64,000 bases of DNA, taken from the IMG/VR virus record IMGVR_UViG_3300017917_005108, positions 32,001-96,000 of that record, one strand, 5' to 3'. Below are positions 35,291 to 59,413 of this stretch, piece by piece; the stretch's first letter is position 1; each line of letters begins with the position of its first letter. A program made the position numbers and the translations under genes. Source of the stretch: a virus. The notes under the pieces were generated by a model. The model saw nothing but the letters and a program-made list of their open reading frames with translations. It was not told where the DNA came from and ran no database searches.

Positions 35291-37576
35291 TTATGAAACA
35301 ATCTCCTGGAAGTTTGTTCCTGTTCTTGTTGCATAGAAGTTAGCTAAGATATATTCAGCTGTTCTTACAGGCTTAATATAAATGTCAACTACTAATGAAT
35401 TGTCATCAATTACAGCAGCTGTATTATTACGTTCATCACATATGATGAGGTAATCATATATACCTTGTGTATTCTTAGCATTTTCAAACAAAGGTGTCAA
35501 TGTATTGACAACTTGTGTTCTTGTAAAGAGTGTATTTGGCTCAAAGACAAACAACTTAACAGTGTCGCGGGTAGCTGTCTCAAGATTTAAGAACAATCTA
35601 CGTACGTTAATTCTGTCAAATGCACTTGGTACTTTCTGTAATGTCTTTTGACCAAAGATTACAAATCCTTCAGCAGGGAAGAATGCAATAGGATTAATAT
35701 TAATCTTGTAAAGATCATCTCTTTGCTTTTGCTTAGGATAATAAGCTGTATCTGTTACACCTTGAATAAGACCGCGTGTAAACCCTGCGGGTGCGTACCA
35801 TGGTTGATAATTTGTATCTGTATTAGCCATTGCAGCTGCTACAAATCCAGAAGATGGTACCCATACCGGTAGGTTAGAAGCAATATCAGTTACTCTTACG
35901 CAAGAACCAAATGTGCAAGCATAGCTTGTATCAATACCTGTAAATTGATTCTTTAATGGCCAGTATATATCAGTAGAGAATGATTTTGTAGGTTCATCAA
36001 TTGTCTTAATACCACCAGATACTAATATATTGGTAAGAGGATCTAGTATAGCAAGATTATCTTTACGCTTTACACCTGCAAAGGATACAAATTCACTTGC
36101 TACTGCAAGATAATTGCTTGCTGCAGCAGGAAGAGAAGTTGCTCTCTGTGCTGTTAGTGCATTAAAGGCAGAATCATAAGTTACCGTATCATCAAAGTAA
36201 CCTGATGTGGCGGGGTTAAATGAGTTTACATAAACTGTACCAAGACCAGCTTCAACAACAAGATTAATTGGATAAATGTCAACATTTTCAACTTTATCAA
36301 ATAGCTTGCTAACCTTAGTAGGTACACTGCCAATTATCTTTGTGGATAGATCAGCATTAGAATAATCACCAATTGCAAACAATGCATCGGTATCACCATA
36401 CTGCGTACGCATTTCATTAACAACGGCTTGTGGTGCACCTACTCTTGCTGTATAGTCTGAACCAGATTCACCGGCAAGAGGAGCTCCTAAGCGAGGTGTT
36501 AGGAAGCGAACCTTCTTTGTTGGTACCCCATCAATGTTAAGCCATGTGTTAGCTCCCTTATTGGAAATATAAGGATTAATTAAAGTAACTACCTGCAAGG
36601 AGCTATCATCCAATGTTTCAATAGAGAAGCTTTGTGCAGGGCCTCCGTTGGTAGAATTTCTTTGTCTATTAGCATCAAAGGAACCAACATAGCTTTCATC
36701 AAGAACATAACCTAATGCAATTGTATCAGGTGAAAATACTGATTGACGTAATTTAAACACTGTTAATATTGCAGTGTCGTCATAATCATTTCCGGAAATA
36801 TCAAAAGAAGGAACATCTTCAATTACTTGAGATATGCTATTACCTGGCCCTGTAGAAGAAGCAGATAGAGTGAAATCTAATCTTGCATCAGGAAGTGTAA
36901 TATAATTTGTAATTGATGCATTAGTAGAATTAATTGATAGTACTCTATTTACATCGTCATATTCTGTAGCAGGATTTAAGTTAGTATTATCAGAAAATCC
37001 TAGATAATACCCTTCATATCTGGTATTAATTGTGGATTGAGATTTGTTTAGAACAATAACGCCTGCAGCACTTAATGAAGTAACACCACTAAATACTTTA
37101 GTTCCAGATGTATTGTTGGACCATGTAAATCCGTCGCCCTTGAGAATACTAATATACTGCTCTTGTGTGAGCTTTAAGTGTGTTGGTTTACCGAAGAAAT
37201 AATTTGCAGAAGGTGCAACTAGGCTTGTTGAAGAAAGCCCGTTGATATAGGAAACAACAGGATAGACTAATGCACTGTAACTATCGGATGTATCTGCCCC
37301 AGCACCAACGCCATATGGTAGTCTATATACTAAAACGTCTGCAGGGCTTTGAAAAGAGGCTTTAACAGAATGATAAAAATATCTTTCAGCGGCATTTGTT
37401 GGTTGGCCGTAAATTTGTTCAAATTCTGATAAGCTGCTAACTTTAATTGGTTCGGAAACAGGACCTTTTGGAGCAAAACCGGGTACTAATATTGTAGTTA
37501 CTGGGTTAGCTGCTGCTCGCAATGAAAGATCTACTTCACTAATTTGTACACCTGGACTTTGTATTTGACGGGCCAT
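35291..37576 (-). CDS. gp18: contractile tail sheath protein gp18-like
   Basis: SPGVQISEVDLS, PWYAPAGFTRG, FDRINVRRLF, FEPN, IKPVRTAEYI. Confidence 0.96.
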   Translation of the reverse strand: MARQIQSPGVQISEVDLSLRAAANPVTTILVPGFAPKGPVSEPIKVSSLSEFEQIYGQPTNAAERYFYHSVKASFQSPADVLVYRLPYGVGAGADTSDSYSALVYPVVSYINGLSSTSLVAPSANYFFGKPTHLKLTQEQYISILKGDGFTWSNNTSGTKVFSGVTSLSAAGVIVLNKSQSTINTRYEGYYLGFSDNTNLNPATEYDDVNRVLSINSTNASITNYITLPDARLDFTLSASSTGPGNSISQVIEDVPSFDISGNDYDDTAILTVFKLRQSVFSPDTIALGYVLDESYVGSFDANRQRNSTNGGPAQSFSIETLDDSSLQVVTLINPYISNKGANTWLNIDGVPTKKVRFLTPRLGAPLAGESGSDYTARVGAPQAVVNEMRTQYGDTDALFAIGDYSNADLSTKIIGSVPTKVSKLFDKVENVDIYPINLVVEAGLGTVYVNSFNPATSGYFDDTVTYDSAFNALTAQRATSLPAAASNYLAVASEFVSFAGVKRKDNLAILDPLTNILVSGGIKTIDEPTKSFSTDIYWPLKNQFTGIDTSYACTFGSCVRVTDIASNLPVWVPSSGFVAAAMANTDTNYQPWYAPAGFTRGLIQGVTDTAYYPKQKQRDDLYKININPIAFFPAEGFVIFGQKTLQKVPSAFDRINVRRLFLNLETATRDTVKLFVFEPNTLFTRTQVVNTLTPLFENAKNTQGIYDYLIICDERNNTAAVIDDNSLVVDIYIKPVRTAEYILANFYATRTGTNFQEIVS

Positions 37577-48466: not shown

Positions 48467-49333
48467 TTATAGATCTTCAAGCAGTTTCTGTAAAGATTCA
48501 TCTTCTGCAGTTGAAGTGCTAGATGGCTTAGTAGTCTCAACCTTTACAGCTTCTGTCTTCGGTGTAGGAAGACTAGCATTTTTAGTCTTTGCTGATTCGT
48601 CTTTTTCAACTACATCAACATCTACGTTGCAATGATAATGCTTGCTGAGTAGATCTTTTAATTCATCATACGACTTAACAGTAAGGTATGATTCAAGATC
48701 AAATACACTGTTATAAATCTTGCTATATGAATCTTCATCTAGACCTTCAACTTCTTTAGGGGAGGTAAACTTAGAGGAAACATATGTAGGATAGTCACCC
48801 TGCTTTTCTACCTTAATCTTAAAGTTTACGCCTTTAGGGCTTAAATCAAAAATACGAGGGCCAAGTTCTTCTGCTTCTTCACCCTGCATTGCATCCATAA
48901 TAATCTTATGAAGCTGGCGACCAAAACGAAGAATTTTAACTTTATTGTTATTCTCTTCGTTCACTGGGTCATTGATAACATAACAGTTAACAAGCCAACG
49001 CTCTGTACGTACAATGCCTTTTGCCTTTTCCTTCTCCTTATCAGTACCGTTTCTTAAGATTCTATAACGCTCCTCAGCAATAGGATCACGCTGATTCCAG
49101 GTGGTAGGGCTTACTGCAGTAATAAGCTGACCAGTAGAAAAGCTATTCCAGCCATAGGAATAGTAGTGCAAAAAGGTTTTAGTAGGATCCTTGGTAAAGG
49201 GTAGAAGTCTAACCGTATAAGTATTGCCTACCTCAGTGCGTAAAAAGTCCTTAATCTTATTTGAACTATTGCTAGTTTCTTTAGTGAGAGCCGATCTAAT
49301 GCTTTCAAACATCGAGTTGGTAATGGAATTCAT
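48467..49333 (-). CDS. gp32: single-stranded DNA-binding protein gp32-like
   Basis: VRLLP, DPI, YVINDP...KVKILRFG, IFDL...GVNFKIK...YPTYVSSKF, acidic tail. Confidence 0.88.
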   Translation of the reverse strand: MNSITNSMFESIRSALTKETSNSSNKIKDFLRTEVGNTYTVRLLPFTKDPTKTFLHYYSYGWNSFSTGQLITAVSPTTWNQRDPIAEERYRILRNGTDKEKEKAKGIVRTERWLVNCYVINDPVNEENNNKVKILRFGRQLHKIIMDAMQGEEAEELGPRIFDLSPKGVNFKIKVEKQGDYPTYVSSKFTSPKEVEGLDEDSYSKIYNSVFDLESYLTVKSYDELKDLLSKHYHCNVDVDVVEKDESAKTKNASLPTPKTEAVKVETTKPSSTSTAEDESLQKLLEDL

Positions 49334-49339
49334 ATTAAA

Positions 49340-49367
49340 ATAATAGTATATAGAGAGATAATATCAA
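49340..49367 (-). promoter_or_regulatory. sigma70-like promoter TTGATA-N16-TATTAT, ATG 6 nt downstream
   Basis: -35 box contains upstream TGA stop. Confidence 0.7.
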
Positions 49368-50005
49368 GCATTTTCTTTAATTTTTTTTATACCTTGTTCT
49401 ACAAAAACTTTACACTTTTTAGAATTTAGAAACTTTACCTTAAAAGTGTCAAAATTATTAACAAAATCCTCACCAAGCATAAATCTAACTACTTCTAAAT
49501 CTGATTTTTTAAAATTTTTTTCAAATGTATTAAAACCAAATAATGAATAAATGTTAATTTTTCTTTCTTTTAAGTGTATTAAGAAATAATGTAAATTGTT
49601 AGATACTTTATCAGTATATAGTTCTAATGGAATGTTTTCTTTACTGCAAAACTCTCTTATAAAAAGAAGAGAATTTTTTGTAAAAGCTAACTGTTCATCT
49701 GAATCGGGGTCAAGCTTTTCTCTTTGTTTTTGTACAATTGTATATGCTTTAGTAGCTTTTAATGTAGAGAAGTGTTTAAGATCTAAAAACGGCGAATCTT
49801 TATACACAATAAATGATGCACTAAAAAAATCTTCAGGCTTAACTTCTTTATTTCTATTGAAGAAATTAACTATCTTTTTCAAATATACAAATGCTTCGTC
49901 GTTTAAAGTAGAAAAATCTTTTCTAAGCTTATAAGGCTTATTATTATTTGATCTTAAGACTTTTAGATATGTGTTGTATATGTACTTGTCGAAATCTGTT
50001 ACCAT
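49364..50005 (-). CDS. hypothetical protein, possibly gp59-like helicase loader
   Basis: Basic 213-aa helical protein directly upstream of gp32, the T4 position of gene 59. Confidence 0.4.
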   Translation of the reverse strand: MVTDFDKYIYNTYLKVLRSNNNKPYKLRKDFSTLNDEAFVYLKKIVNFFNRNKEVKPEDFFSASFIVYKDSPFLDLKHFSTLKATKAYTIVQKQREKLDPDSDEQLAFTKNSLLFIREFCSKENIPLELYTDKVSNNLHYFLIHLKERKINIYSLFGFNTFEKNFKKSDLEVVRFMLGEDFVNNFDTFKVKFLNSKKCKVFVEQGIKKIKENA

Positions 50006-50208
50006 TTATAATACTTCCACTTGTTCCTAAGAACTTGTGGCTTTATCTTTTTCAGCATGCTTGGTTTGAGGTATGTACGTTTAAGGCGAAGCTCTTCCAT
50101 AATAAAAGATCTGCTTACTTCGCTTGAAAACTTTTTTAACATTCTTTCAAAATATTCTTTATCAGAACATCTTTCTTTCTTTAATTTTACTTCGGCTTTT
50201 ATAATCAT
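49999..50208 (-). CDS. rpsU: ribosomal protein bS21-like
   Basis: 69 aa, basic; FERMLKKFSSEVSRSFIMEELRLKRTYLKPS matches bS21 pattern (E-x-x-L-R/K-R/K-F...I-x-x-E-x-R-x-x-x-x-Y-x-K-P-S). Confidence 0.72.
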   Translation of the reverse strand: MIIKAEVKLKKERCSDKEYFERMLKKFSSEVSRSFIMEELRLKRTYLKPSMLKKIKPQVLRNKWKYYKW

Positions 50209-50480
50209 ATTGAGTTAAAGTTTTTGGAATTTATAAATTTCATTATATATTTACTCTTATACAATGTTGAATCAAATTGTAAAAAGTACTTAAGAGCATA
50301 GTAGTCATTTTTAAAGTCGCAATAATTCTTTAAAAGATCTCTGAATTTTTTATTTTTTAGTACAAGTAAGAATACATTAGCTAGATTCAATTTTTTTGTA
50401 TCAAGTAGTGTACAGAATGTACAGAAAGACAAGAAAAGATGATTTACTTCGTAGTGTGTTATTTTTTCTGATGGGTCCAT
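50205..50480 (-). CDS. hypothetical protein
   Basis: Coupled ORF. Confidence 0.55.
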   Translation of the reverse strand: MDPSEKITHYEVNHLFLSFCTFCTLLDTKKLNLANVFLLVLKNKKFRDLLKNYCDFKNDYYALKYFLQFDSTLYKSKYIMKFINSKNFNSI

Positions 50481-50481
50481 T

Positions 50482-51384
50482 TTAGTTTACCGGATAAAGA
50501 AGTTTTGTAATGTTAAGGAAGTTATCATTAACAGTTCCACCTGCTACAAATGCATCACCACCTCCATTAAAAAGTTTTTTAGCAAAATTTCCTAAATGAA
50601 CATCTACGCTTTTCTTTTTTCTTATACTTAGATTATTTGTTTTTAAATTTACACTTATTACTATATCACAATTATACTTGTCAATCACCATTCTACATAT
50701 CTCTGAAGGGTGTAGCTCGTTAAATGTACTGCATACAGAATACTGCTTACCGCCAATTTTTAAATCGCCCTTAAAAATTTTCAAAGAATTAAAGTGTTCA
50801 TTTAGTTCATCGGTACATATTTTTACAAGAGACTGCTGACCTGTAGTAAATTTAGTAAAGCCATTACTAAACAAGTTATAAAAAGCTTTTGCTTTTTCAC
50901 CTACTAGTGTCCAATACAAGCAATTAAGCTGTAGTGTTTCAGGAAATTTTAGCTCATAGCTATCATAGTCGTCAATTAAAATTAATAACTTCTTTTGTTC
51001 GGGTGTGAGCGGTGTTTTAAATTTTTCTTTTAATTTTTTATAAATTAAGATAGTACAGCTTGAATATTCCTGTGATTCATTTTTAAGGTTTTTTGTGATT
51101 ATATCTTTTTCAGATGAAATAATTCTGTGGTTAATGTAGACTACATTAGGCAAATCTATAATATCTTTACAGCTTTCAATAACAGCTAAATCGCAAATAT
51201 AAATTTTTTTATATTCGTCTTTATTTTTTAACTGTGAAAATTCGTCTCTAAATTTTTTTTCTGTTGTTTGTATAACTTTAAAATCTTTACCAATAAAATT
51301 TCTAAACACATAGTACACACCTGCGCCATCTAAGTCTATATCTGTAAATAGAACTATACTAGGATTAGATGAGGTCTCCACCAT
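50482..51384 (-). CDS. DHH/DHHA1-family protein with degenerate catalytic motifs
   Basis: TDIDLDG, ICDL, INHR (for DHH), IDDYDS, GGGDAFVAGG (for GGGHxxAAG). Confidence 0.75.
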   Translation of the reverse strand: MVETSSNPSIVLFTDIDLDGAGVYYVFRNFIGKDFKVIQTTEKKFRDEFSQLKNKDEYKKIYICDLAVIESCKDIIDLPNVVYINHRIISSEKDIITKNLKNESQEYSSCTILIYKKLKEKFKTPLTPEQKKLLILIDDYDSYELKFPETLQLNCLYWTLVGEKAKAFYNLFSNGFTKFTTGQQSLVKICTDELNEHFNSLKIFKGDLKIGGKQYSVCSTFNELHPSEICRMVIDKYNCDIVISVNLKTNNLSIRKKKSVDVHLGNFAKKLFNGGGDAFVAGGTVNDNFLNITKLLYPVN

Positions 51385-51387
51385 CTT

Positions 51388-51415
51388 ATCTTATATAAAG
51401 GAAGACCTAAATCAA
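51388..51415 (-). promoter_or_regulatory. sigma70-like promoter TTGATT-N16-TAAGAT
   Basis: ATG 3 nt and in-frame GTG 6 nt downstream; -35 box contains helicase TGA stop. Confidence 0.6.
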
Positions 51416-52737
51416 CTCAAGGATAGATTTGTAAGTGTTGATATTGAAGATGTTGAAGCTTCCGTTTCATTATTGATTTCATCTTCAGTTAATGTAAGAG
51501 TTGAGTAGTCAATGCGCATATTAACAGAGCCAAAGTTTGCACCAAATCTATTCTTCATCATACCCATCTTTATTACACCTAATTCTTTATCTGTATCTTC
51601 TTGCCAAATGCTTAATATTACGTCAGCAGTAAAGCCTAATCCCATAGATTCGGATAATGTCTTTAATCCGGGATCACTAACTTCATAGCCTTCTCTATTG
51701 AGCTGTGTAGCAGATATGACAGGAAAATTAAAGACATAGCTCAAAGCTCTCAACTGTTCTGTGACGTATTTAACTCTTTCATATGTGTTATTACCGATAG
51801 TAGTATGAAGAAGATTAACGTAGTCAACAACAAGAGCATCTATTTTAATGCCTTTATTTACAATCTTCTTAATGAATGCTTTTAGGTTATTTGTTGTTAT
51901 AGTCGATGGGGGGAATTCTTTAATAATAATCTTTGATGATGGATTGGTGTTTCTATAGTCCTGTAATTGTTGAAATAGTGTAGTAGATTCACTCTTAAGA
52001 TGGCTAAAAGGTATTTTTGTAATATTAGTACAAAGTCTTTTTGCGTATATCATTTCAGGCATCTCAAGAGATACAAGTAATACTGTCTTACCCTGTGATG
52101 CAATGTTTACTGCAATATTACCTAAGAAGATTGACTTACCGATATTAGTTTCACCTGCAAAAATATAAATAGATCTTCCACTTTCTAGAAAACCACCGCC
52201 AATCTTATCATCAAGCCATTTCCATTTAGAAGATATATAATTCTCTTGCTTATTTAAATCATCAATAATTTGGTTGGTATCTTCAAGCAAATCAAGTCCA
52301 ATATTTGTTGTTAATGATACGTTACAGGCTTTTTCAAATTTATCTAAAACTGCGCTTGTATCTACGGAGTTTTTATTAATATCGTCAACAACCTCAAGCA
52401 TTGTATAGTATACAGATTTCTCTTTTAAGAATGTCTCAGTATTAGAGTTTAATTCATCAGCATTTAAATTTTTATCAAAATTATTAAAACTATTGATTAC
52501 ATTTTTAAAGCTTGTTTTTAATTCTTCTGTAGTAAGATATGTCTTTATTTCTGTTGGTGTAGGCTTCACGCCTCTCTTTTGATAAAATTCTTTTATTACT
52601 GTAAAGATATTCTTTATATCTACATTTTTAAAATAAAGAGGCTTAACATAATCAATAATAGAAGCAAGATAAGTCTCATCAGTAAGAGACTTATACATAA
52701 TGACGTTCTCAAAAAAATCTAAATCAAGCTTCTGCAT
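51412..52737 (-). CDS. gp41: replicative helicase gp41/DnaB-like
   Basis: GETNIGKS, SLEM, IIKEFP, VVDY, SATQLNR, SES, MKNRFG. Confidence 0.95.
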   Translation of the reverse strand: MQKLDLDFFENVIMYKSLTDETYLASIIDYVKPLYFKNVDIKNIFTVIKEFYQKRGVKPTPTEIKTYLTTEELKTSFKNVINSFNNFDKNLNADELNSNTETFLKEKSVYYTMLEVVDDINKNSVDTSAVLDKFEKACNVSLTTNIGLDLLEDTNQIIDDLNKQENYISSKWKWLDDKIGGGFLESGRSIYIFAGETNIGKSIFLGNIAVNIASQGKTVLLVSLEMPEMIYAKRLCTNITKIPFSHLKSESTTLFQQLQDYRNTNPSSKIIIKEFPPSTITTNNLKAFIKKIVNKGIKIDALVVDYVNLLHTTIGNNTYERVKYVTEQLRALSYVFNFPVISATQLNREGYEVSDPGLKTLSESMGLGFTADVILSIWQEDTDKELGVIKMGMMKNRFGANFGSVNMRIDYSTLTLTEDEINNETEASTSSISTLTNLSLS

Positions 52738-52745
52738 TATCTTTA

Positions 52746-53441
52746 TTATATACCTAAACTAGAATATTCACTAAGAAATTTTTCCTGGCTCTGTGTAAAA
52801 GATGGGTCATTAGGATTTAATAAACCGGGTGATCTATGAATTACCCATATAGGATGAACACCAAGCTTTAATTTTTTGGAATTTGCATCTAAACTACTTG
52901 CAATATCGTAATGATGGAATTTATAATTTTCATTAAACTTCCATCCAGACTTTTTAATTTTTTTAGTATCAATACTTATAAACAGACCATCTAGAATTGC
53001 TACGCGTGAAGGAGTGGCGCCAAAAGTAGTCATAACTAACGATTCGTTATCTGCAAAATGGGCAACAGCTCCTCTAAGATTACCACTACCAAAGCCACCG
53101 CACATTAAATGCCATAAAGCTGGTCTTATTATTTTTGCATTCACACCGCCAGCAAGACCAACTATATCATATCTTGTATGAGCTGCTACAAGCTTATCTA
53201 CGACATTAAAGTCATCTATATAAACATCATCATGAACAAAAACTATATAATCATAATTTGAAATATTATCAAATAATTCTTTATTATATCTTACACTAAG
53301 GCCATCAGTGTTATTGCAAGCATAGTGTATATCAATATCGTGCTGTGTTTTTACTTTTTCTGTTATTTTAGATATACTGTTGTAGAAAAGAGTATTTTCT
53401 ATGCTTGGGCTTCTAGTAGCGCTAAAAAATGCTATCTTCAT
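52746..53441 (-). CDS. GT-A fold glycosyltransferase-like protein
   Basis: YN...VFVHDDV, VGLAG, LDGLFI, FHHYD. Confidence 0.75.
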   Translation of the reverse strand: MKIAFFSATRSPSIENTLFYNSISKITEKVKTQHDIDIHYACNNTDGLSVRYNKELFDNISNYDYIVFVHDDVYIDDFNVVDKLVAAHTRYDIVGLAGGVNAKIIRPALWHLMCGGFGSGNLRGAVAHFADNESLVMTTFGATPSRVAILDGLFISIDTKKIKKSGWKFNENYKFHHYDIASSLDANSKKLKLGVHPIWVIHRSPGLLNPNDPSFTQSQEKFLSEYSSLGI

Positions 53442-54124
53442 GCAGTAAAGAAAGGTGAATTTGGTTTAAATTCACCAACAGATGTGAGCCCTTCCACTGT
53501 TTGTAAAAAAAGTGTACCTTCTTCGAGAGGTTTGAATTTATCGTGCGGTATAGATGAGAAATCATTGCTAATATAATCTGCATATAGCGTGCTTCCAGAA
53601 CGAGCTAGATATACGTTACCGGTTTTGCTATTATATATCCAAAGTCCAAATGTTCCTTTTAAAAGTGATAATGCAGTACAAATACAGTCAACTTCTTTCT
53701 TCGACTTCTCGCAGACAGAATGTATCAGTGCAGGTATAACAGATGAATCTACTTCATTAATGCTTTTATATTTTTTAAGCTGCTTTTTAAGCTCATTATG
53801 ATTTGTAAGAACACCATTATGCGCTACATACCATTCCTTCTCATTAAATGGATGAGTTGTATCGTGTTTATAGTCTCTTTGAGATGAGGTCGGTGCTTGC
53901 GTATGGCCAAGGTAATTCTTAAAATCACTCAAAAGCATAGATTTTTTTCCCTTCAATTGAAGGGCTGGTTTTCCAGAAAAATTAAATGTTCCTTTTACTT
54001 TTACAACAGCGTGTAACTTATTGTCAATAAACACACCTCCATAAGAGAAATTACCTCGTTTCTTATTTTTCTTATATAAAGACACATATCTTTTATAATC
54101 CTTTGATCCGAAGATACCGCACAT
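53438..54124 (-). CDS. class-II (Ntn) glutamine amidotransferase
   Basis: N-terminal MCGIFG, GHTQAPT, HPF, AHNGVLTN, VDS. Confidence 0.9.
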   Translation of the reverse strand: MCGIFGSKDYKRYVSLYKKNKKRGNFSYGGVFIDNKLHAVVKVKGTFNFSGKPALQLKGKKSMLLSDFKNYLGHTQAPTSSQRDYKHDTTHPFNEKEWYVAHNGVLTNHNELKKQLKKYKSINEVDSSVIPALIHSVCEKSKKEVDCICTALSLLKGTFGLWIYNSKTGNVYLARSGSTLYADYISNDFSSIPHDKFKPLEEGTLFLQTVEGLTSVGEFKPNSPFFTA

Positions 54125-54130
54125 TCATAT

Positions 54131-54159
54131 ATTATATGCGATTAGCATAAATAATTCAA
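54131..54159 (-). promoter_or_regulatory. sigma70-like promoter TTGAAT-N17-TATAAT, ATG 6 nt downstream; opposite-strand late TAAATA inside its spacer
   Basis: Read directly. Confidence 0.7.
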
Positions 54160-54160
54160 G

Positions 54161-55030
54161 ATGAATAATGATAGTAAGTTAATATTTGAAGCATATTTAC
54201 AGAAAAAAATGTTAAATGAAGCACCTCCTGCATATGCAATGGGGGATTTAGATATATCTGAACCTAGTCTTAAATCAGCTCCTGGCGGTGGCTATGGCCT
54301 TAAGAAAGCAGCTGCAAAATCAGGTAAATCTATGAAAGAAGTTTCTGATGAATTGGTTAAAAAGATTCAATCACAGCTCTTTAAGCCTGAATCTCACACA
54401 GTTGATGGTGTTGAATATACCCTCTTTTATCCTGGTAATGAAATGAAGCTCCGTAATGATCTACATAGCTTAATTCAAAAAGAACTTGGATTGGGTAAAA
54501 CAGAAGCGGGTTATACAGCTAGAATTGTAAGAAATATGTTAAACATAGTTGTAAAAGATGAAGTAACAGGTGGTATAGCTGTTGCTCCAGAGAAAGTTAA
54601 AGACGCAGTCAAAGCAGGTGCAGCTAAGCCAGTGAAAACAGAAACTGTTTATGAAATTGAAAAAAGTGTTAAAGTTCCAGATAAATCATTAAGAAAATTT
54701 ATTCTATCATTGCCTGACGAAGATGTACCTGAAAAAGAGATTCTAGGTGTTCTAAAAAATGCTATAAAAGAATATAATGATACACCTGGCTTATCAAAAG
54801 AAGATATGCTAAAAATGAGAAGCTTAGAGCTTGTTGATAAGCTTACAGAGCTGGGTGTTTTAAGGACAAAGCAAGTAGAAGCAAAGCAAAAAGAAGGTGA
54901 AGGTTCTGGAGAAGTTGAGACTATTGAAGATTATCCAGAAACTGATACCGCTGGTTCAGTAGCTAGAGAACTTGGTTACATTGGTCGTGGTAGAGGATTT
55001 GATGCTGGTGGCTTTAGTTATAACGACTAA
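54161..55030 (+). CDS. late hypothetical protein (candidate internal head protein)
   Basis: TAAATA 7 nt upstream; N-terminus DSKLIFEAY...LNEA. Confidence 0.6.
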   Translation: MNNDSKLIFEAYLQKKMLNEAPPAYAMGDLDISEPSLKSAPGGGYGLKKAAAKSGKSMKEVSDELVKKIQSQLFKPESHTVDGVEYTLFYPGNEMKLRNDLHSLIQKELGLGKTEAGYTARIVRNMLNIVVKDEVTGGIAVAPEKVKDAVKAGAAKPVKTETVYEIEKSVKVPDKSLRKFILSLPDEDVPEKEILGVLKNAIKEYNDTPGLSKEDMLKMRSLELVDKLTELGVLRTKQVEAKQKEGEGSGEVETIEDYPETDTAGSVARELGYIGRGRGFDAGGFSYND

Positions 55031-55763
55031 TTGATTTACAATTATATTTTTTCCACGGAATTTCCTTACTATAGGGCACTGGATCAATAAAGCCTGCATC
55101 TATAAAACCTTTTATCCTCAAAGAGCATGCAGTACATTCACCGCAAGCTTGCTCTCTTCCTTCATAGCAAGTCCAGGTTTGACTGAAATCTACTCCAAGC
55201 TTAACACCTAATTTTATAATTTCTTCTTTAGATTTATCAATTAATGGTGCTTGAACTGTAATTCTGTTTCTTCTATTAAGAGCTGACACCTTATTAATTT
55301 GCTCAAGAAACTCATCACTCCCGTCCCAAAACCCTGCAACACTATCAGCTTGTGCAGCTCCATGAAAAACAGTACTAGCGCCATAGTTTTCTGCGATTGC
55401 GAGAGAGATACTAAGTAACATTAAGTTTCTGTATGGAACATAGTTTACTGTTTGCGGGTCACCCATTACGTCCTTAGCTTTTGCTACTGCAATCTTACTA
55501 TTAAGAAGTGAAGAGACTTGACATATATCTTTGAAAAACGGTAATTTTATGTGCAAACTGTCGACCGGCATATCAACTGATTCAATCTGAAATGACGCGC
55601 AGTTTATTTCTTTATCACGGTGTTTTTGACCGTAATCATAGTTAACCGTAATTATCTTATCATACCTACTTGCAGCCAAATGAAGTAGGACAGTACTATC
55701 CATGCCCCCAGAAATAGGGACTACTGCTTTACTCGTGTGGTTCTTCTTCTGTTTGCGCTTCAT
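55014..55763 (-). CDS. queC: 7-cyano-7-deazaguanine synthase QueC-like
   Basis: SGGMDS PP-loop, YGQKH, YVPYRN, TWTCY...CGECTAC. Confidence 0.92.
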   Translation of the reverse strand: MKRKQKKNHTSKAVVPISGGMDSTVLLHLAASRYDKIITVNYDYGQKHRDKEINCASFQIESVDMPVDSLHIKLPFFKDICQVSSLLNSKIAVAKAKDVMGDPQTVNYVPYRNLMLLSISLAIAENYGASTVFHGAAQADSVAGFWDGSDEFLEQINKVSALNRRNRITVQAPLIDKSKEEIIKLGVKLGVDFSQTWTCYEGREQACGECTACSLRIKGFIDAGFIDPVPYSKEIPWKKYNCKSISRYN

Positions 55764-56847
55764 TTGAATTATACTTGTATTCTTCGGTTAAGCGCTTGTC
55801 GAGTTCAGGTATAATGAATTCCTCGTAGAAAGCGGGGTCTTTTGCAAAACTCTTTGCATACCCTAGTTTATCACCTTTCTTATATTTTCCACTTGTAACA
55901 CCTACAGTATAAGTAGCACCATTTTGTTCAACAATACCTCTTGCTGCAGCCATTCCTAATAACCCACTATACTTGTTAAGTCCTGTCTTAAAGGACAGAT
56001 ACATTTCTGTCTCTAAGAATGGCGGTAAGAAGCGATTCTTTACAGTTAAAGCACGTAATGTTGTACCGCTGTATTTGTTAGCCTCTGCAATCTTTTTATC
56101 TTCTGCATCAATAGAATCACCTTCACCCTCTTTTTCATGACGCTTAGCAAGCTGTACAAGTATACTAGCCATGTATACTGGACCTGAGCCACCAGCTTGA
56201 TTCTTCACAAGACTAGGAAACATTGCAGCTGGGTCATCATATGTATGGTTAGTAAAGAGAATAGTTACACCAGCTTTTGCAGCTTTGAAAGTTAGAGTAC
56301 GGAATAAACTCTTAAGAGACTTTGCCCTAAGTCCCATATCAGCAGCTGATTTATCCTTTGCAACGTCGTCTAGCTCTTTTTGAGAAGCGAGATTACCTAA
56401 ACTATCAATACTAATAATAAATTTACCTTTAGCATTATTTTCTACTACACTATCAAGAAATGCTGCGATTTGGTTACGACACTGATCAATAGTATCTACA
56501 GGTACGTACTTAGTGTTTTCAGGATCTAAGCCAACACCTTTTGTACTATTTTCATCTATAGCAATTTCTGTGTCAAATATGACCGGTGTAATGCCTTTCT
56601 TTTGAGCATTAGCTAGAATCTTATTTACAATAAATGTTTTACCAGTTTGACTTGGTCCAGAGAATCCTGTTATTCTTCCCTTAGGGACACCACCACCGCG
56701 GCAACTGCCACCAAGTATAGCGTTAAGAGCATAACATCCTGTATCAAACCACTCATCAACTTTACTAAGTGCATTTTCGTTTAAAAAGGAAGCTTCGCTA
56801 TTTAGTTTATCTAGACTTGCAAATATTTTACTAAGGTCTTTGCTCAT
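55729..56847 (-). CDS. uvsX: RecA-like recombinase UvsX
   Basis: DTGCYALN, GPSQTGKT, FDTE, IDSLGNL, DMGLRAK, TNHTY, GGSG. Confidence 0.93.
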   Translation of the reverse strand: MSKDLSKIFASLDKLNSEASFLNENALSKVDEWFDTGCYALNAILGGSCRGGGVPKGRITGFSGPSQTGKTFIVNKILANAQKKGITPVIFDTEIAIDENSTKGVGLDPENTKYVPVDTIDQCRNQIAAFLDSVVENNAKGKFIISIDSLGNLASQKELDDVAKDKSAADMGLRAKSLKSLFRTLTFKAAKAGVTILFTNHTYDDPAAMFPSLVKNQAGGSGPVYMASILVQLAKRHEKEGEGDSIDAEDKKIAEANKYSGTTLRALTVKNRFLPPFLETEMYLSFKTGLNKYSGLLGMAAARGIVEQNGATYTVGVTSGKYKKGDKLGYAKSFAKDPAFYEEFIIPELDKRLTEEYKYNSNEAQTEEEPHE

Positions 56848-57278: not shown

Positions 57279-58247
57279 CTGTACAATTTCTTTCCAAGCA
57301 CTGTAAGTTTTTTCTTTATCTTTATTATTAACAACTAGGTTATTGTTTTTTAATAACTGCTTTAAATGTGAAAATGAATCAAAATAATTTACACTATACG
57401 TATTGTTATAGAAGTCACATAAACTTAGCCATTTTTCATTTAAAAAATTCTCTCTTTTTCTTCTATCGTCAAATCCTCTAAAAGTTAACTCTGAAAATAA
57501 AGGTATACCTCTATTTGGCCAATTTTGATTGATAAGTTCTAGTATAAACTTCAAACTAGGCATTAAAATAGGTACACCTGCTGTTGTTTGTTCAAACAAA
57601 GACATTGTAGAATTGTGATATGGAAAATGAACGATTGATTTGTAGGAATAAAGATCTTTATATGTATAGTCTCCTAATTTACTTTGATGTATTAGATTTT
57701 CATCCTCTATAAAATTTTTAGAAAAAACTATTGAACTGTTGTGTTTTGGTGTATATTTTTCTTTAGTGTAGTCACATAAGCTTGGTATTAGTTTTATATC
57801 TCTATTAAAAAATAATTTACTGTAGTGTATATCAAATTCATTGTTAGCTATTAAAATGAGATTTTTGTTGTTGTTTAATGACTCTTCTAACCATAATAGT
57901 CTTGATGGGTCATTGTGAAGTGGAAAATCATATCGTATAGGAATAACAACTATTATAGGTTTATTAAACTTTTCGTAGAGTTTTAAAAACGCTGTAGGGT
58001 ATGCTACTATAAATGCATCATATTTGTCTAGTTCATTTTTATGGTGTTTGTAGAAATCATCACACATTTTTTGGTCTATCTTAGACCAGTTGCCATCATT
58101 TATAACTGGAGAGGGGCAAGATGGGTAGTTAAAAATATGTCTATGACCAGAGATTGACCAATGATCAACTTCATGGCCTAAGTGTTCTAGTATATTTTTT
58201 ATATCAGCAATAACAGCAATATGACAATCAATATTAAAAAACTTCAT
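57264..58247 (-). CDS. putative GT-B glycosyltransferase
   Basis: GHEV near N-terminus; VHFPY...MSLFEQTTAGVPILMP; coupled to sugar enzymes. Confidence 0.55.
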   Translation of the reverse strand: MKFFNIDCHIAVIADIKNILEHLGHEVDHWSISGHRHIFNYPSCPSPVINDGNWSKIDQKMCDDFYKHHKNELDKYDAFIVAYPTAFLKLYEKFNKPIIVVIPIRYDFPLHNDPSRLLWLEESLNNNKNLILIANNEFDIHYSKLFFNRDIKLIPSLCDYTKEKYTPKHNSSIVFSKNFIEDENLIHQSKLGDYTYKDLYSYKSIVHFPYHNSTMSLFEQTTAGVPILMPSLKFILELINQNWPNRGIPLFSELTFRGFDDRRKRENFLNEKWLSLCDFYNNTYSVNYFDSFSHLKQLLKNNNLVVNNKDKEKTYSAWKEIVQLISR

Positions 58248-59413
58248 AGATTTTCATTTACTATTTTAATTACATGATCTAAATCTTTTTTAGATAAACT
58301 ACAGTGATTAGGTACATATAATCCCTTTGTATGAATTACATCTGCATTTGGAAGCGATGTCTTACCGTATAGGTTATACCAAAAAGGTTGTTGACCTATA
58401 GATCCACATATTAGAGGTCTGCATTCAACACCGCTATTTCTAAGAGCTTTTACTAGCCTATCTTTATTAGGTGTAATTATTGGATAGCAAAAATTAGAAA
58501 CAAAATTTTCAGAAAGCGGATTAATTTTCCAGTAAGGGTTAGTAATATTCTTATGATAATATTCGTAATTTTTGTTTCTTGTTTCAATTATTTTATCTAG
58601 TTTATTGAGCTGTATTAAGCCTATTTTAGCTTGTAAGTCTGTAGATCTTATGTTGAATCCTGGATAATAAAACGTGTAGAGAGCATTAAAATCATTTATA
58701 TTATATTTTTTTCTAAGCTTTTGTTGTACGGATGGTTCAAGATCTCTATCCCAGCCATGGCTTCTTATACTTGTTATTAAATTATAAATCTCTCTATCAT
58801 TTGTACAAACCATACCCCCTTCAATAGTAGAAAAATGATGACCAAAAAAGAAAGAGAAGGTACTAAAATCACCAAATGTTCCTAGTTTTTTATTATTAAA
58901 GCTTGATCCAATAGACTCACAAGTATCTTCTATGAGTCTTATATTATTTTTTTTACACAATCTTTGAATATATTCAATATTATTGCATGAAAACCCTAAA
59001 ACATGTACTAGTATTAATAGAGAAGGTTGTTCTTTTTTAATAATTTTTTCTAAATGCTCTATGTCAAGACCGAGATCATTCATATTACAGTCACACATAA
59101 TAGGTTGTAAGCCTAGTTGAATAGCAGGTGCTACTGTAGTAGCCCAAGAAATTGCAGGTACAATAATTTTCTTATTTTTAAGTTTATTTGTTTGTATAAG
59201 ACTATACATTGCAGCAAGATTAGCTGATGATCCAGAATTGACAAATACTGCATATTTGGTACCTAACCATCTAGCAAAACTTTTTTCAAATTCTGCAGTT
59301 CTATCTTTTTTAGTAAGTATAGGCGTTGTTTTCAGCCACTTGATGAGAGTGTTAATATCATGCTTGCTGATAGTGTCTTCAGCTAGCTTTACTTTTAAAA
59401 TTTTTGATGTCAT
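58244..59413 (-). CDS. DegT-family PLP enzyme, ColD/E1-type 3-dehydratase
   Basis: VNSGSSANL, IEDTCES, FSFFFGHHFSTIEGG (His in place of the Schiff-base Lys), RSHGW. Confidence 0.85.
   Translation of the reverse strand: MTSKILKVKLAEDTISKHDINTLIKWLKTTPILTKKDRTAEFEKSFARWLGTKYAVFVNSGSSANLAAMYSLIQTNKLKNKKIIVPAISWATTVAPAIQLGLQPIMCDCNMNDLGLDIEHLEKIIKKEQPSLLILVHVLGFSCNNIEYIQRLCKKNNIRLIEDTCESIGSSFNNKKLGTFGDFSTFSFFFGHHFSTIEGGMVCTNDREIYNLITSIRSHGWDRDLEPSVQQKLRKKYNINDFNALYTFYYPGFNIRSTDLQAKIGLIQLNKLDKIIETRNKNYEYYHKNITNPYWKINPLSENFVSNFCYPIITPNKDRLVKALRNSGVECRPLICGSIGQQPFWYNLYGKTSLPNADVIHTKGLYVPNHCSLSKKDLDHVIKIVNENL

What the first reader, a model, noticed from the sequence alone, without database searches (positions are those of the whole stretch)
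49999..50208. Divergent phage bS21 in a genome of leaderless mRNAs: possible ribosome-reprogramming system
Seen: a bS21-like ORF with altered core (LKKFSSEV, SFI in place of the usual GI) and an aromatic tail KWKYYKW, translationally coupled in a replication operon under a sigma70-like promoter. Established: bS21 lies beside the anti-SD end of 16S rRNA, helps sequester it in Bacteroidota, and is dispensable for leaderless initiation; phage bS21 genes are known. Inference, and the best candidate for a new system here: the phage protein replaces host bS21 early, masks the anti-SD, suppresses SD-led host translation and favours the phage's leaderless and coupled mRNAs.
Basis: partly seen in the sequence, partly recalled or inferred. 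Interest (0 to 1): 0.85.

Follow-up and report, generated by a model that had tools for sequence, protein, structure and literature searches.

The report
Divergent phage bS21 in leaderless-mRNA phage
An uncultured T4-like phage carries a real but unusual copy of ribosomal protein bS21, and its promoters sit directly against its start codons with no ribosome-binding sites, which makes the old question of why phages carry bS21 testable.

Summary
The ORF at 49999-50208 (-) is real and is a bS21 homologue. It passes the Pfam Ribosomal_S21 cut-off (31.1 bits against 27), and its family profile hits only bS21 chains in the PDB. dN/dS is 0.03-0.07.

It belongs to a divergent, virus-only clade: 71 IMG/VR contigs, none found in GTDB genomes. 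The clade keeps the KPS core and ends in a conserved aromatic tail, NKWK[YF]Y.

The 'leaderless genome' claim holds statistically:
- T4-type late boxes (TAAATA) lie 5-7 nt before 51 start codons.
- Sigma70-type promoters end 5-8 nt before 27 more.
- 75 of 194 genes are coupled to the gene upstream.
- SD motifs are at chance level.

Across 11 T4-like genomes, the four with bS21 have 3-51 such late boxes. The seven without have 0-2.

Not supported:
- The Bacteroidia-type anti-SD-masking signature is not at the equivalent position.
- The promoter nearest the gene is indistinguishable from chance.
- Early timing is not general, since a subclade drives its bS21 from a late box.

The host is unresolved. 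That phage bS21 takes over host ribosomes is already a published hypothesis. The link to leaderless mRNAs is not mentioned in the three main phage-bS21 papers read, and remains untested.

The parts
49999..50208 (-). 69-aa divergent bS21 homologue. The KPS core is at residues 48-50 and the aromatic C-terminal tail KWKYYKW at 63-69.
   Evidence: ORF. PF01165 at 31.1 bits, cut-off 27. The clade profile hits only bS21 chains in the PDB, best E 1.9e-8. dN/dS 0.03-0.07.
50205..50480 (-). 91-aa ORF of no known family. Its stop overlaps the bS21 start as ATGA. An ORF of about 95 aa holds this position in all type-A relatives.
   Evidence: No similarity to Syn9 gp33.
49364..50005 (-). 213-aa ORF whose start overlaps the bS21 stop as ATGGTAA. 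It sits where T4-like phages carry gp59, just upstream of gp32. That is a guess from position only.
   Evidence: BLASTP against Syn9 gp59 gives E 0.22, not significant.
50482..51384 (-). 300-aa ORF, first gene after the nearest early-type promoter. It has only weak DHHA1 and exopolyphosphatase-like matches.
   Evidence: DHHA1 E 0.054; phrog_1850 E 0.0018.
51388..51415 (-). Weak sigma70-like promoter, TTGATT-16-TAAGAT, ending 3 nt before the ATG at 51384.
   Evidence: The position is less good than at other early genes.
54131..54159 (-). Sigma70-like promoter, TTGAAT-17-TATAAT, ending 6 nt before the ATG at 54124. It is the best-placed early promoter upstream of the helicase-bS21 unit.
51412..52737 (-). 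gp41/DnaB-type replicative helicase.
   Evidence: PF03796 at 1.2e-27; phrog_19 at 4.7e-72.
48467..49333 (-). gp32-type single-strand DNA-binding protein. Its own sigma70-like promoter (49367-49340) ends 6 nt before the ATG.
   Evidence: PF08804 at 1.8e-17; phrog_224 at 2.1e-40. Promoter.

Best explanation
The ORF encodes a functional, lineage-specific variant of ribosomal protein bS21. It is made from an early, replication-module transcription unit by termination-reinitiation coupling.

Inference, not shown: the protein takes the bS21 site on the host 30S platform, next to the 3' end of 16S rRNA. There it tunes initiation to the phage's own messages, which carry no Shine-Dalgarno sequence and are either leaderless or coupled. 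The conserved KPS core and second helix would anchor it to 16S rRNA. The altered first helix (KFSxE where cellular bS21 has RFKR) and the clade-specific aromatic, basic tail NKWK[YF]Y would change how the anti-SD end and the mRNA exit site behave. The net effect would be to disfavour SD-led host mRNAs relative to phage mRNAs.

Shown: homology, purifying selection, conserved synteny, coupling, absence of SD, and promoter placement.

Inferred: ribosome incorporation and any selectivity.
For: Homology:
- PF01165 above its cut-off.
- The 13-sequence clade profile hits 36 distinct PDB sequences, all bS21 or mitochondrial/plastid S21, with best E 1.9e-8.
- F27, R44, P49 and S50 are invariant. R41, K48, K63 and W64 are nearly so.
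- The AF2 model has pLDDT 83 and three helices.

Selection and spread:
- dN/dS is 0.03-0.07.
- 71 IMG/VR contigs carry the clade, the longest 229,717 bp.
- Synteny helicase / ~95 aa / bS21 / ~213 aa / gp32 is conserved, with the ATGA overlap kept.

Genome architecture:
- TAAATA lies 5, 6 or 7 nt before 31, 12 and 8 start codons. Chance gives about 0.2 per offset.
- The T4 late box spans -13 to -6 (PMC2988020). A 5-nt gap therefore puts +1 on the A of ATG.
- TTGAnn-N16-18-TAnnnT ends 5-8 nt before 27 starts, with a peak of 13 at 6 nt. These include gp32, DNA polymerase, UvsX and a further gene.
- 75 of 194 genes lie within 4 nt of, or overlap, the gene upstream. SD-like motifs are found at 8% of genes. 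In one search GGAG was found at 5% of starts against 2.3% of random positions.
- Relatives share the design.

Comparative:
- Late boxes 4-8 nt from a start number 51, 16, 7 and 3 in the four bS21-bearing T4-likes.
- They number 0, 0, 0, 1, 2, 0 and 0 in seven without bS21. One of these has the same 31% GC and the same box density.

Literature:
- HTVC008M bS21 enters E. coli 70S ribosomes, and such ribosomes translate an in-vitro GFP reporter at about 5% of normal (PMC6375957).
- E. coli ribosomes lacking uS2 and bS21 have a displaced anti-SD, and lambda cI leaderless mRNA is translated better in that mutant (PMC10491246).
Against: - No data show that this protein binds a ribosome. The host is unknown, so its SD usage and its own bS21 cannot be examined.
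- The Bacteroidia ASD-sequestering signature is not at the equivalent position. Residue +12 after KPS is Asn, with W at +14 and Y at +16 and +17. The tail has 7 K/R and no D/E.
- In Bacteroidia, sequestration also needs special bS18 and bS6, which a phage cannot supply.
- HTVC008M, Mosig and Melnitz carry bS21 yet have SD-like motifs at 45-50% of genes. So bS21 does not require an SD-free genome.
- The association rests on two independent bS21 lineages only.
- Leaderless transcription is inferred from promoter placement, not from mapped 5' ends.
- A subclade expresses its bS21 from a late box, so 'early replacement' is not general.
Confidence: 0.4

Rival explanations
1. Plain supplement. The phage bS21 tops up or replaces a loosely bound, exchangeable host ribosomal protein to keep ribosomes initiation-competent during infection, for example after host shut-off. 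It has no preference for any class of mRNA. The leaderless design would be an independent trait of the lineage.
For: - Viruses preferentially carry dynamic, exchangeable ribosomal proteins (PMC6375957).
- Core rRNA-binding motifs are conserved.
- Pelagimyophages carry host-like bS21 (54% identical to the host's), and 45-50% of their genes have SD-like motifs.
Against: - The clade is far from cellular bS21: 31 bits against 61-79 bits for cellular copies and 56-66 for pelagiphage and methylophage copies.
- It has its own conserved aromatic tail, which suggests altered rather than identical function.
- HTVC008M bS21 ribosomes were nearly inactive on the GFP reporter in vitro.
- The separation of bS21-bearing from bS21-lacking T4-likes in late-box placement would be a coincidence.
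Confidence: 0.3
2. Positive helper of reinitiation or leaderless 70S initiation. The aromatic, basic tail contacts the mRNA 5' end or the exit channel. It stabilises 70S complexes on 5'-terminal AUG/GUG, or at stop-start overlaps, and raises phage translation directly rather than by suppressing host mRNAs.
For: - 39% of genes are coupled, and about 40% carry promoters abutting the start codon.
- The tail is invariant across an otherwise diverse clade.
- Huge-phage S21 proteins with extra basic, aromatic extensions were proposed to bind RNA (PMC7162821).
Against: In E. coli, leaderless translation improves when bS21 is absent, so a bS21 that helps would need a gained function. There is no structural evidence. 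Foldseek and VIA searches were uninformative.
Confidence: 0.15
3. Off-ribosome role. This is a bS21-derived small RNA-binding protein that no longer sits on the 30S and acts on phage or host RNA, for instance as a regulator or chaperone.
For: - It falls below the NCBIfam equivalog cut-off.
- bS21 is reported as a component of a non-ribosomal RNP, OLE (PMC12054373; title seen, paper not read).
- It is always coupled to an unknown ORF of about 95 aa in type-A genomes.
Against: The residues kept invariant are those of the bS21 core (R-x-x-R, [YF]-x-KPS), and the length stays in the bS21 range. In the type-B subclade the gene stands alone.
Confidence: 0.1

Closest known systems
Pelagimyophage and methylophage bS21 (HTVC008M, Mosig, Melnitz; Mizuno et al. 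2019, PMC6375957; Zaragoza-Solas et al. 2020, PMC7029224)
   Same: A bS21 gene in aquatic, AT-rich T4-like myophages. These genomes also have late boxes exactly 5 nt before some start codons: 11, 6 and 3 genes.
   Different: - Those proteins are canonical (56-66 bits on PF01165) and host-derived. This clade scores 31 bits and aligns to HTVC008M bS21 at 26% identity over 39 columns.
- Those phages have SD-like motifs at 45-50% of genes. This one is at chance level.
- This record lacks peptide deformylase, which is core to pelagimyophages.
- DNA polymerase is only about 30% identical to that of any cultured T4-like.
bS21 of freshwater Bacteroidota phages (Chen et al. 2022, PMC9723584)
   Same: A phage bS21 with a clade-conserved C-terminus. 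The same idea was proposed for it: substitution into host ribosomes to favour phage transcripts.
   Different: - Those genes sit on the reverse strand in the structural module and are expressed late. They resemble Flavobacteriia bS21 and keep an aromatic at the Tyr54 position.
- Here the gene is co-directional in the replication module behind E. coli-type early promoters.
- The clade profile matches Firmicute and gamma-proteobacterial bS21 better than F. johnsoniae (1.9e-8 against 2.1e-5).
- The Tyr54-equivalent residue is Asn.
Bacteroidia bS21 that sequesters the anti-SD together with bS18 and bS6 (Jha et al. 2020, PMC7797042; McNutt et al. 2023, PMC9976891)
   Same: A bS21 that goes with SD-independent initiation. 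This is the mechanistic model for how a bS21 variant could blind ribosomes to SD.
   Different: The signature Tyr at KPS+12, the less basic tail and the SD on its own gene are all absent here. The partner features of bS18 and bS6 belong to the host and are unknown.
Ribosome heterogeneity through bS21 loss or paralogues (E. coli rpsB11 ribosomes and lambda cI leaderless mRNA, PMC10491246; Francisella bS21 paralogues, PMC9578407)
   Same: Presence, absence or type of bS21 changes which mRNAs are initiated. Loss of bS21 shifts the anti-SD, and that mutant translates leaderless mRNA better.
   Different: Those are cellular cases. Here the variant is virus-encoded, and its effect is only inferred. 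The Francisella paper was seen by abstract only.

Membership tests
Ribosomal protein bS21 (Pfam PF01165 / TIGR00030) | Score above the Pfam gathering threshold | tested here: met
   31.1 bits against 27, E 1.9e-7. 30.8 bits in the six-frame search.
Ribosomal protein bS21 (Pfam PF01165 / TIGR00030) | Score above the NCBIfam equivalog cut-off (same function as cellular bS21) | tested here: not met
   TIGR00030 at 22.5 bits against 28.95. Homology holds, but equivalence of function is not certified.
Ribosomal protein bS21 (Pfam PF01165 / TIGR00030) | Conserved core: R-x-x-R, then [YF]-x-KP[ST], in a basic protein of about 55-75 aa | tested here: met
   R41, R44, K48, P49 and S50 are invariant or nearly so. 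69 aa, pI 10.1. Alignments to solved bS21 chains.
Ribosomal protein bS21 (Pfam PF01165 / TIGR00030) | bS21 fold (helical hairpin plus C-terminal helix) | tested here: inconclusive
   The AF2 model has three helices at pLDDT 83. Foldseek found no match. The best VIA Z was 4.9; a chlororibosome chain at Z 4.6 is not separable from noise.
Ribosomal protein bS21 (Pfam PF01165 / TIGR00030) | Incorporation into the 30S platform beside the 16S 3' end | not testable with these tools
   Needs biochemistry or cryo-EM. It has been shown only for HTVC008M bS21 in E. coli (PMC6375957).
Bacteroidia-type ASD-sequestering bS21 | Aromatic residue at the Tyr54 position (12 residues after the S of KPS) | tested here: not met
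   A Flavobacteriales bS21 has Y at +12. The phage protein has N62 at +12, W64 at +14, and Y66 and Y67 at +16 and +17.
Bacteroidia-type ASD-sequestering bS21 | C-terminal domain markedly less basic than in other phyla | tested here: not met
   The tail after KPS has 7 K/R and 0 D/E, pI 10.5. The criterion is from PMC7797042.
Bacteroidia-type ASD-sequestering bS21 | Strong SD on the bS21 gene itself (autoregulation, Flavobacteriia) | tested here: not met
   The 30 nt upstream of the start hold no SD-like motif. The gene starts inside an ATGA overlap.
T4-type late transcription (gp55/gp33/gp45 acting on a TATAAATA box) | 8-bp TATA-type box at -13 to -6 upstream of late (structural) genes, with no -35 element | tested here: met
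   65 genes carry TAAATA within 40 nt of the start, mainly structural ones such as sheath, tube, terminase and tail-fibre genes. Replication genes carry the sigma70 type instead. The same box is seen in the T4, Syn9 and HTVC008M controls.
T4-type late transcription (gp55/gp33/gp45 acting on a TATAAATA box) | Phage-encoded gp55 and gp33 homologues | tested here: inconclusive
   None was recognised among 28 window proteins scanned with PHROGs, eight of them also with Pfam. No BLASTP similarity of the 91-aa ORF to Syn9 gp33. The record is only 77% complete, and these proteins diverge fast.
Leaderless mRNA | Transcript 5' end at, or within a few nt of, the start codon | not testable with these tools
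   It is inferred from promoter-to-ATG spacing and the known geometry of T4 late promoters. No RNA data are available.

The most novel reading that the evidence does not exclude
Phage bS21 is a specificity switch. Once on the host 30S it makes ribosomes poor at SD-led initiation but fully competent on leaderless and reinitiating messages. T4-like phages that acquired bS21, at least twice independently, rewired their late promoters, and in this lineage their early ones too, so that transcription starts at the start codon. The present clade would be the end-point: an SD-free phage with a virus-specific bS21 whose aromatic tail handles the 16S 3' end.
Probability: 0.22. Interest if true: 0.85.

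Novelty: new variant of a known kind. Interest (0 to 1): 0.62.

Why it matters
bS21 is by far the commonest ribosomal protein in viruses, about 88% of detections in PMC6375957. Its benefit to the phage has been guessed at since HTVC008M was sequenced and has never been shown.

This locus gives a concrete, falsifiable reading. The phages that carry bS21 are the ones whose late promoters are placed to make leaderless mRNAs, and one whole lineage has dropped SD sequences altogether.

That can be tested with cultured systems (HTVC008M or Mosig on Pelagibacter, Melnitz on OM43). It can also be tested in E. coli with paired SD-led and leaderless reporters. Mizuno et al. already saw that ribosomes bearing phage bS21 translate a GFP reporter at about 5% of normal.

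If it holds, it would be a new mode of host translation take-over. It would also be a natural example of ribosome specialisation by exchange of one small protein. Separately, a T4-like phage whose early and late transcription units all look leaderless is unusual in itself.

Tried and rejected
- Close cultured relatives: blastn of 4 kb found nothing. tblastn of the bS21 against INPHARED gave only chance hits at E of 3 or more.
- PHROGs: no family matches the bS21, the 91-aa ORF or the 213-aa ORF.
- Structure search: Foldseek against the PDB gave no match. VIA-align wide gave a best Z of 4.9, which is noise level.
- Cellular members of the clade: the GTDB scan with a clade-specific peptide pattern found none. 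phmmer over 1.84 billion representatives found only 7 at E of 1e-3 or better.
- Host by Gmd: the best hits, 73-77% identical, are scattered over Verrucomicrobiota, Acidobacteriota, Spirochaetes, Bdellovibrionota and Cyanobacteria, so they are uninformative.
- Host by tmRNA: BLAST against 151 Bacteroidota genomes matched only the universal 28-nt 3' end in 20 genomes, plus one 30-nt internal stretch in another.
- Relatives of a virus record cannot be drawn by the genome search.
- Pelagimyophage membership was rejected. There is no peptide deformylase, the bS21 is distant, the polymerase is about 30% identical to all T4-likes alike, and the tmRNA is one-piece, not the two-piece alphaproteobacterial type.
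- A Bacteroidota host was considered because of the missing SD sequences. The early promoters are E. coli-type (TTGAYA-N16-17-TATAAT) rather than what I recall as the Bacteroidota type (TAnnTTTG at -7). This rests on my memory and on reading the sequences, so I now think it unlikely but not excluded.
- Initiator tRNA: the phage tRNA-Met(CAT) has a paired 1:72 position and lacks the three G-C pairs next to the anticodon loop, so it is not an initiator.
- Other translation take-over genes (S1, IF1, peptide deformylase, MazF/PemK) were not found in the 162-kb record.
- gp33 and gp59 identity of the flanking ORFs: no significant BLASTP similarity.
- My first assumption, 'SD-less but not leaderless', was dropped.

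Full report
**The observation.** The window is bases 32001-96000 of a 162,497-bp IMG/VR virus record that CheckV rates 77% complete. GC content is 31%.

It matches Pfam Ribosomal_S21 above the curated cut-off (31.1 bits against 27, E 1.9e-7). It falls short of the NCBIfam equivalog cut-off (22.5 against 28.95). phmmer against the PDB returns only bS21 chains. A profile of 13 clade members returns 36 distinct PDB sequences, all of them bacterial, plastid or mitochondrial S21. The best are Lactococcus and Staphylococcus bS21 at about 1e-8, and Flavobacterium johnsoniae scores 2.1e-5.

The AlphaFold model is confident (pLDDT 83) and has three helices. Structure searches were uninformative for so small a helical protein.

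**The clade.** Only 7 clusters at 90% identity and 7 representatives at 50% identity reach E of 1e-3 or better in the two large protein libraries. A pattern scan of IMG/VR found 71 viral contigs that encode relatives at 38-63% identity, including contigs of 229,717 and 217,413 bp. The same kind of scan of one genome per GTDB species found none.

All members keep [YF]-x-KPS and R-x-x-R. Nearly all end in NKWK[YF]Y, with zero to three further residues.

dN/dS in unsaturated pairs is 0.03-0.07. Cellular bS21 proteins score 61-79 bits on the Pfam model, and the bS21 of pelagiphages and a methylophage score 56-66. The clade aligns to HTVC008M bS21 at only 26% identity over 39 columns. It is therefore an old, virus-specific branch, not a recent capture.

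**Context.** The phage is T4-like. It has a gp41-type helicase, gp32, gp43-type polymerase, primase, large terminase, sheath and tube. It has no close cultured relative: the polymerase is about 30% identical to cyanophage polymerases, and the terminase is 37-40% identical to those of rhizobiophages.

The bS21 gene lies between the helicase and gp32. Its start overlaps the stop of a 91-aa ORF (ATGA), and its stop overlaps the start of a 213-aa ORF (ATGGTAA). This arrangement is conserved in most relatives, which I call type A.

In a subclade, type B (for example L040 and L045), the gene stands alone. In L040 and L045 a TAAATA box lies just before its start codon. So the timing of expression differs within the clade.

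The promoter-like site nearest the gene (50270-50242) cannot be told from chance, because the scan finds 58 sites where shuffles give 49 +/- 7. Better-placed early-type promoters lie at 54159-54131. A weaker one lies at 51415-51388.

**The 'leaderless genome'.** I first read the lack of SD as simply SD-less. Earlier notes on this genome pointed to a TAAATA box near start codons, and I tested that.
- Among 196 crudely called genes, TAAATA ends 5, 6 or 7 nt before the start codon in 31, 12 and 8 genes. Chance gives about 0.2 per offset.
- The T4 late promoter is an 8-bp box whose first base is at -13 (PMC2988020). The box therefore ends at -6, and a 5-nt gap puts +1 on the first base of the start codon.
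- These boxed genes are mostly structural.
- Replication and other early-type genes instead carry TTGAnn, 16-18 nt, TAnnnT. This ends 5-8 nt before the start in 27 genes, with a peak of 13 at 6 nt against about 0.2 expected per offset. That again puts +1 at the start codon. A -35 element has no role in translation, so these are promoters and not ribosome-binding signals.
- A further 75 of 194 genes overlap, or lie within 4 nt of, the gene upstream. SD-like motifs are at background level.
- Relatives share all of this.
- No 5'-end data exist, so leaderless transcription remains an inference, though a strong one.

**Comparative test.** I ran the same script on ten other T4-like genomes whose bS21 status I checked with PF01165.

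| Genome | bS21 | Genes with a late box 4-8 nt before the start |
|---|---|---|
| This phage | yes | 51 |
| HTVC008M | yes | 16 |
| Mosig | yes | 7 |
| Melnitz | yes | 3 |
| C48C1 | no | 0 |
| Pseudoalteromonas phage XG4 | no | 0 |
| phiM9 | no | 0 |
| Syn9 | no | 1 |
| P-SSM2 | no | 2 |
| KVP40 | no | 0 |
| T4 | no | 0 |

In genomes without bS21, the late boxes sit 9-40 nt upstream, with an SD in between. XG4 has the same GC content and box density as this phage, so base composition does not explain the pattern.

The separation is complete, but it rests on only two independent bS21 lineages. The three pelagiphage-type genomes have SD-like motifs at 45-50% of genes, against 8% here.

**Mechanism.** Three published results bear on it.
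- HTVC008M bS21 enters E. coli ribosomes, and those ribosomes translate a GFP reporter in vitro at about 5% of normal (PMC6375957).
- E. coli ribosomes lacking uS2 and bS21 have a displaced anti-SD, and lambda cI leaderless mRNA is translated better in that mutant (PMC10491246).
- In Bacteroidia, bS21 together with bS18 and bS6 sequesters the anti-SD (PMC7797042).

The specific Bacteroidia signature is missing, however. The residue 12 positions after KPS is Asn, and the aromatics are at +14, +16 and +17. The tail is strongly basic, and there is no SD on the gene. Any effect on the anti-SD would have to work differently. I put the selective-ribosome reading at about 0.4, with a non-selective supplement role as the main rival.

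**Host.** It is unresolved. The early promoters are of the E. coli type. The genome carries a one-piece tmRNA (Rfam 96 bits). [quoted passage not shown] Neither a Gmd search nor a tmRNA search pointed to a host.

**What is known and what is new.** Phage bS21 and the substitution hypothesis are published (PMC6375957, PMC7162821, PMC9723584). None of these three papers mentions leaderless mRNAs. Two literature searches found nothing that links bS21 or pelagiphages with leaderless phage transcripts.

What is new here is three things: a divergent virus-only bS21 clade with an aromatic tail, an SD-free T4-like lineage whose promoters abut its start codons, and a small-sample association between the two traits.

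Noticed in passing
G000:C1:282-688 (locus L011:282-688, minus strand; about 31 kb before the window): The phage encodes a full-length one-piece tmRNA (Rfam RF00023, 96.3 bits, model positions 1-374). ARAGORN predicts an unusually long 33-residue tag that starts AEDNF and does not end in the usual ALAA.
   Followed up: partly
G000:C1:159242-159316 (locus L012:1744-1816, minus strand): This is the single tRNA gene, tRNA-Met(CAT). It has a paired 1:72 position and lacks the three G-C pairs next to the anticodon loop. It is therefore an elongator Met or a lysidine-type Ile tRNA, not an initiator.
   Followed up: partly
Whole window, e.g. late boxes before starts at 37576, 34702, 33760, 32869 and 28416; early promoters before 49333, 54124, 56847 and 62746: There are two promoter classes, both abutting start codons. 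T4-type TAAATA boxes lie 5-7 nt before 51 genes, mostly structural. TTGAYA-N16-17-TATAAT-type promoters end 5-8 nt before 27 genes, mostly replication genes. About 22% of the boxed late starts are GTG by my count from the list. That would be unusual for leaderless initiation in E. coli.
   Followed up: yes
Published genomes HTVC008M (NC_020484), Mosig (MT647606) and Melnitz (MZ577097); loci L009 and L176-L194: These cultured bS21-bearing myophages have (T)ATAAATA boxes exactly 5 nt before the ATG of 11, 6 and 3 genes. The remaining late boxes lie 9-40 nt upstream. I found no mention of this in the papers read.
   Followed up: yes
L040, L045, L064 and L071 (IMG/VR contigs up to 229,717 bp): A subclade of the same bS21 family carries the gene on its own, in a different neighbourhood. 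In L040 and L045 a late TAAATA box lies 4-8 nt before its start. There the bS21 would itself be a leaderless late gene.
   Followed up: partly
Window 52746-55763: Next to the helicase lie genes whose orthologues in related contigs are annotated GATase_6/7, Glyco_tranf_2_5 and QueC. RecA/UvsX follows at 55729-56847. This looks like a 7-deazaguanine-type DNA modification set. I did not scan the window's own copies.
   Followed up: no
G000:C1:747-1757 (L011) and C1:13640-20621 (L084): The GDP-mannose 4,6-dehydratase scores 501 bits and is 73-77% identical to homologues from several phyla. A run of radical SAM / SPASM proteins has the SPASM-type domain at the N-terminus in at least two of them.
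   Followed up: partly
Control panel of the genome search: PF01165 is found in 6 of 14 control genomes. It is missing from the four remaining bacterial controls (Thermus, Deinococcus, Thermotoga, Corynebacterium). The archaeal controls lack it too, as expected for a bacterial protein. From memory, the Actinobacteria and Deinococcus-Thermus are rich in leaderless mRNAs, which fits a link between bS21 and SD-led initiation.
   Followed up: no
Window 58244-59413: A 389-aa aminotransferase (phrog_3139, E 5e-77) sits among the replication genes, next to two ORFs of no known family.
   Followed up: no
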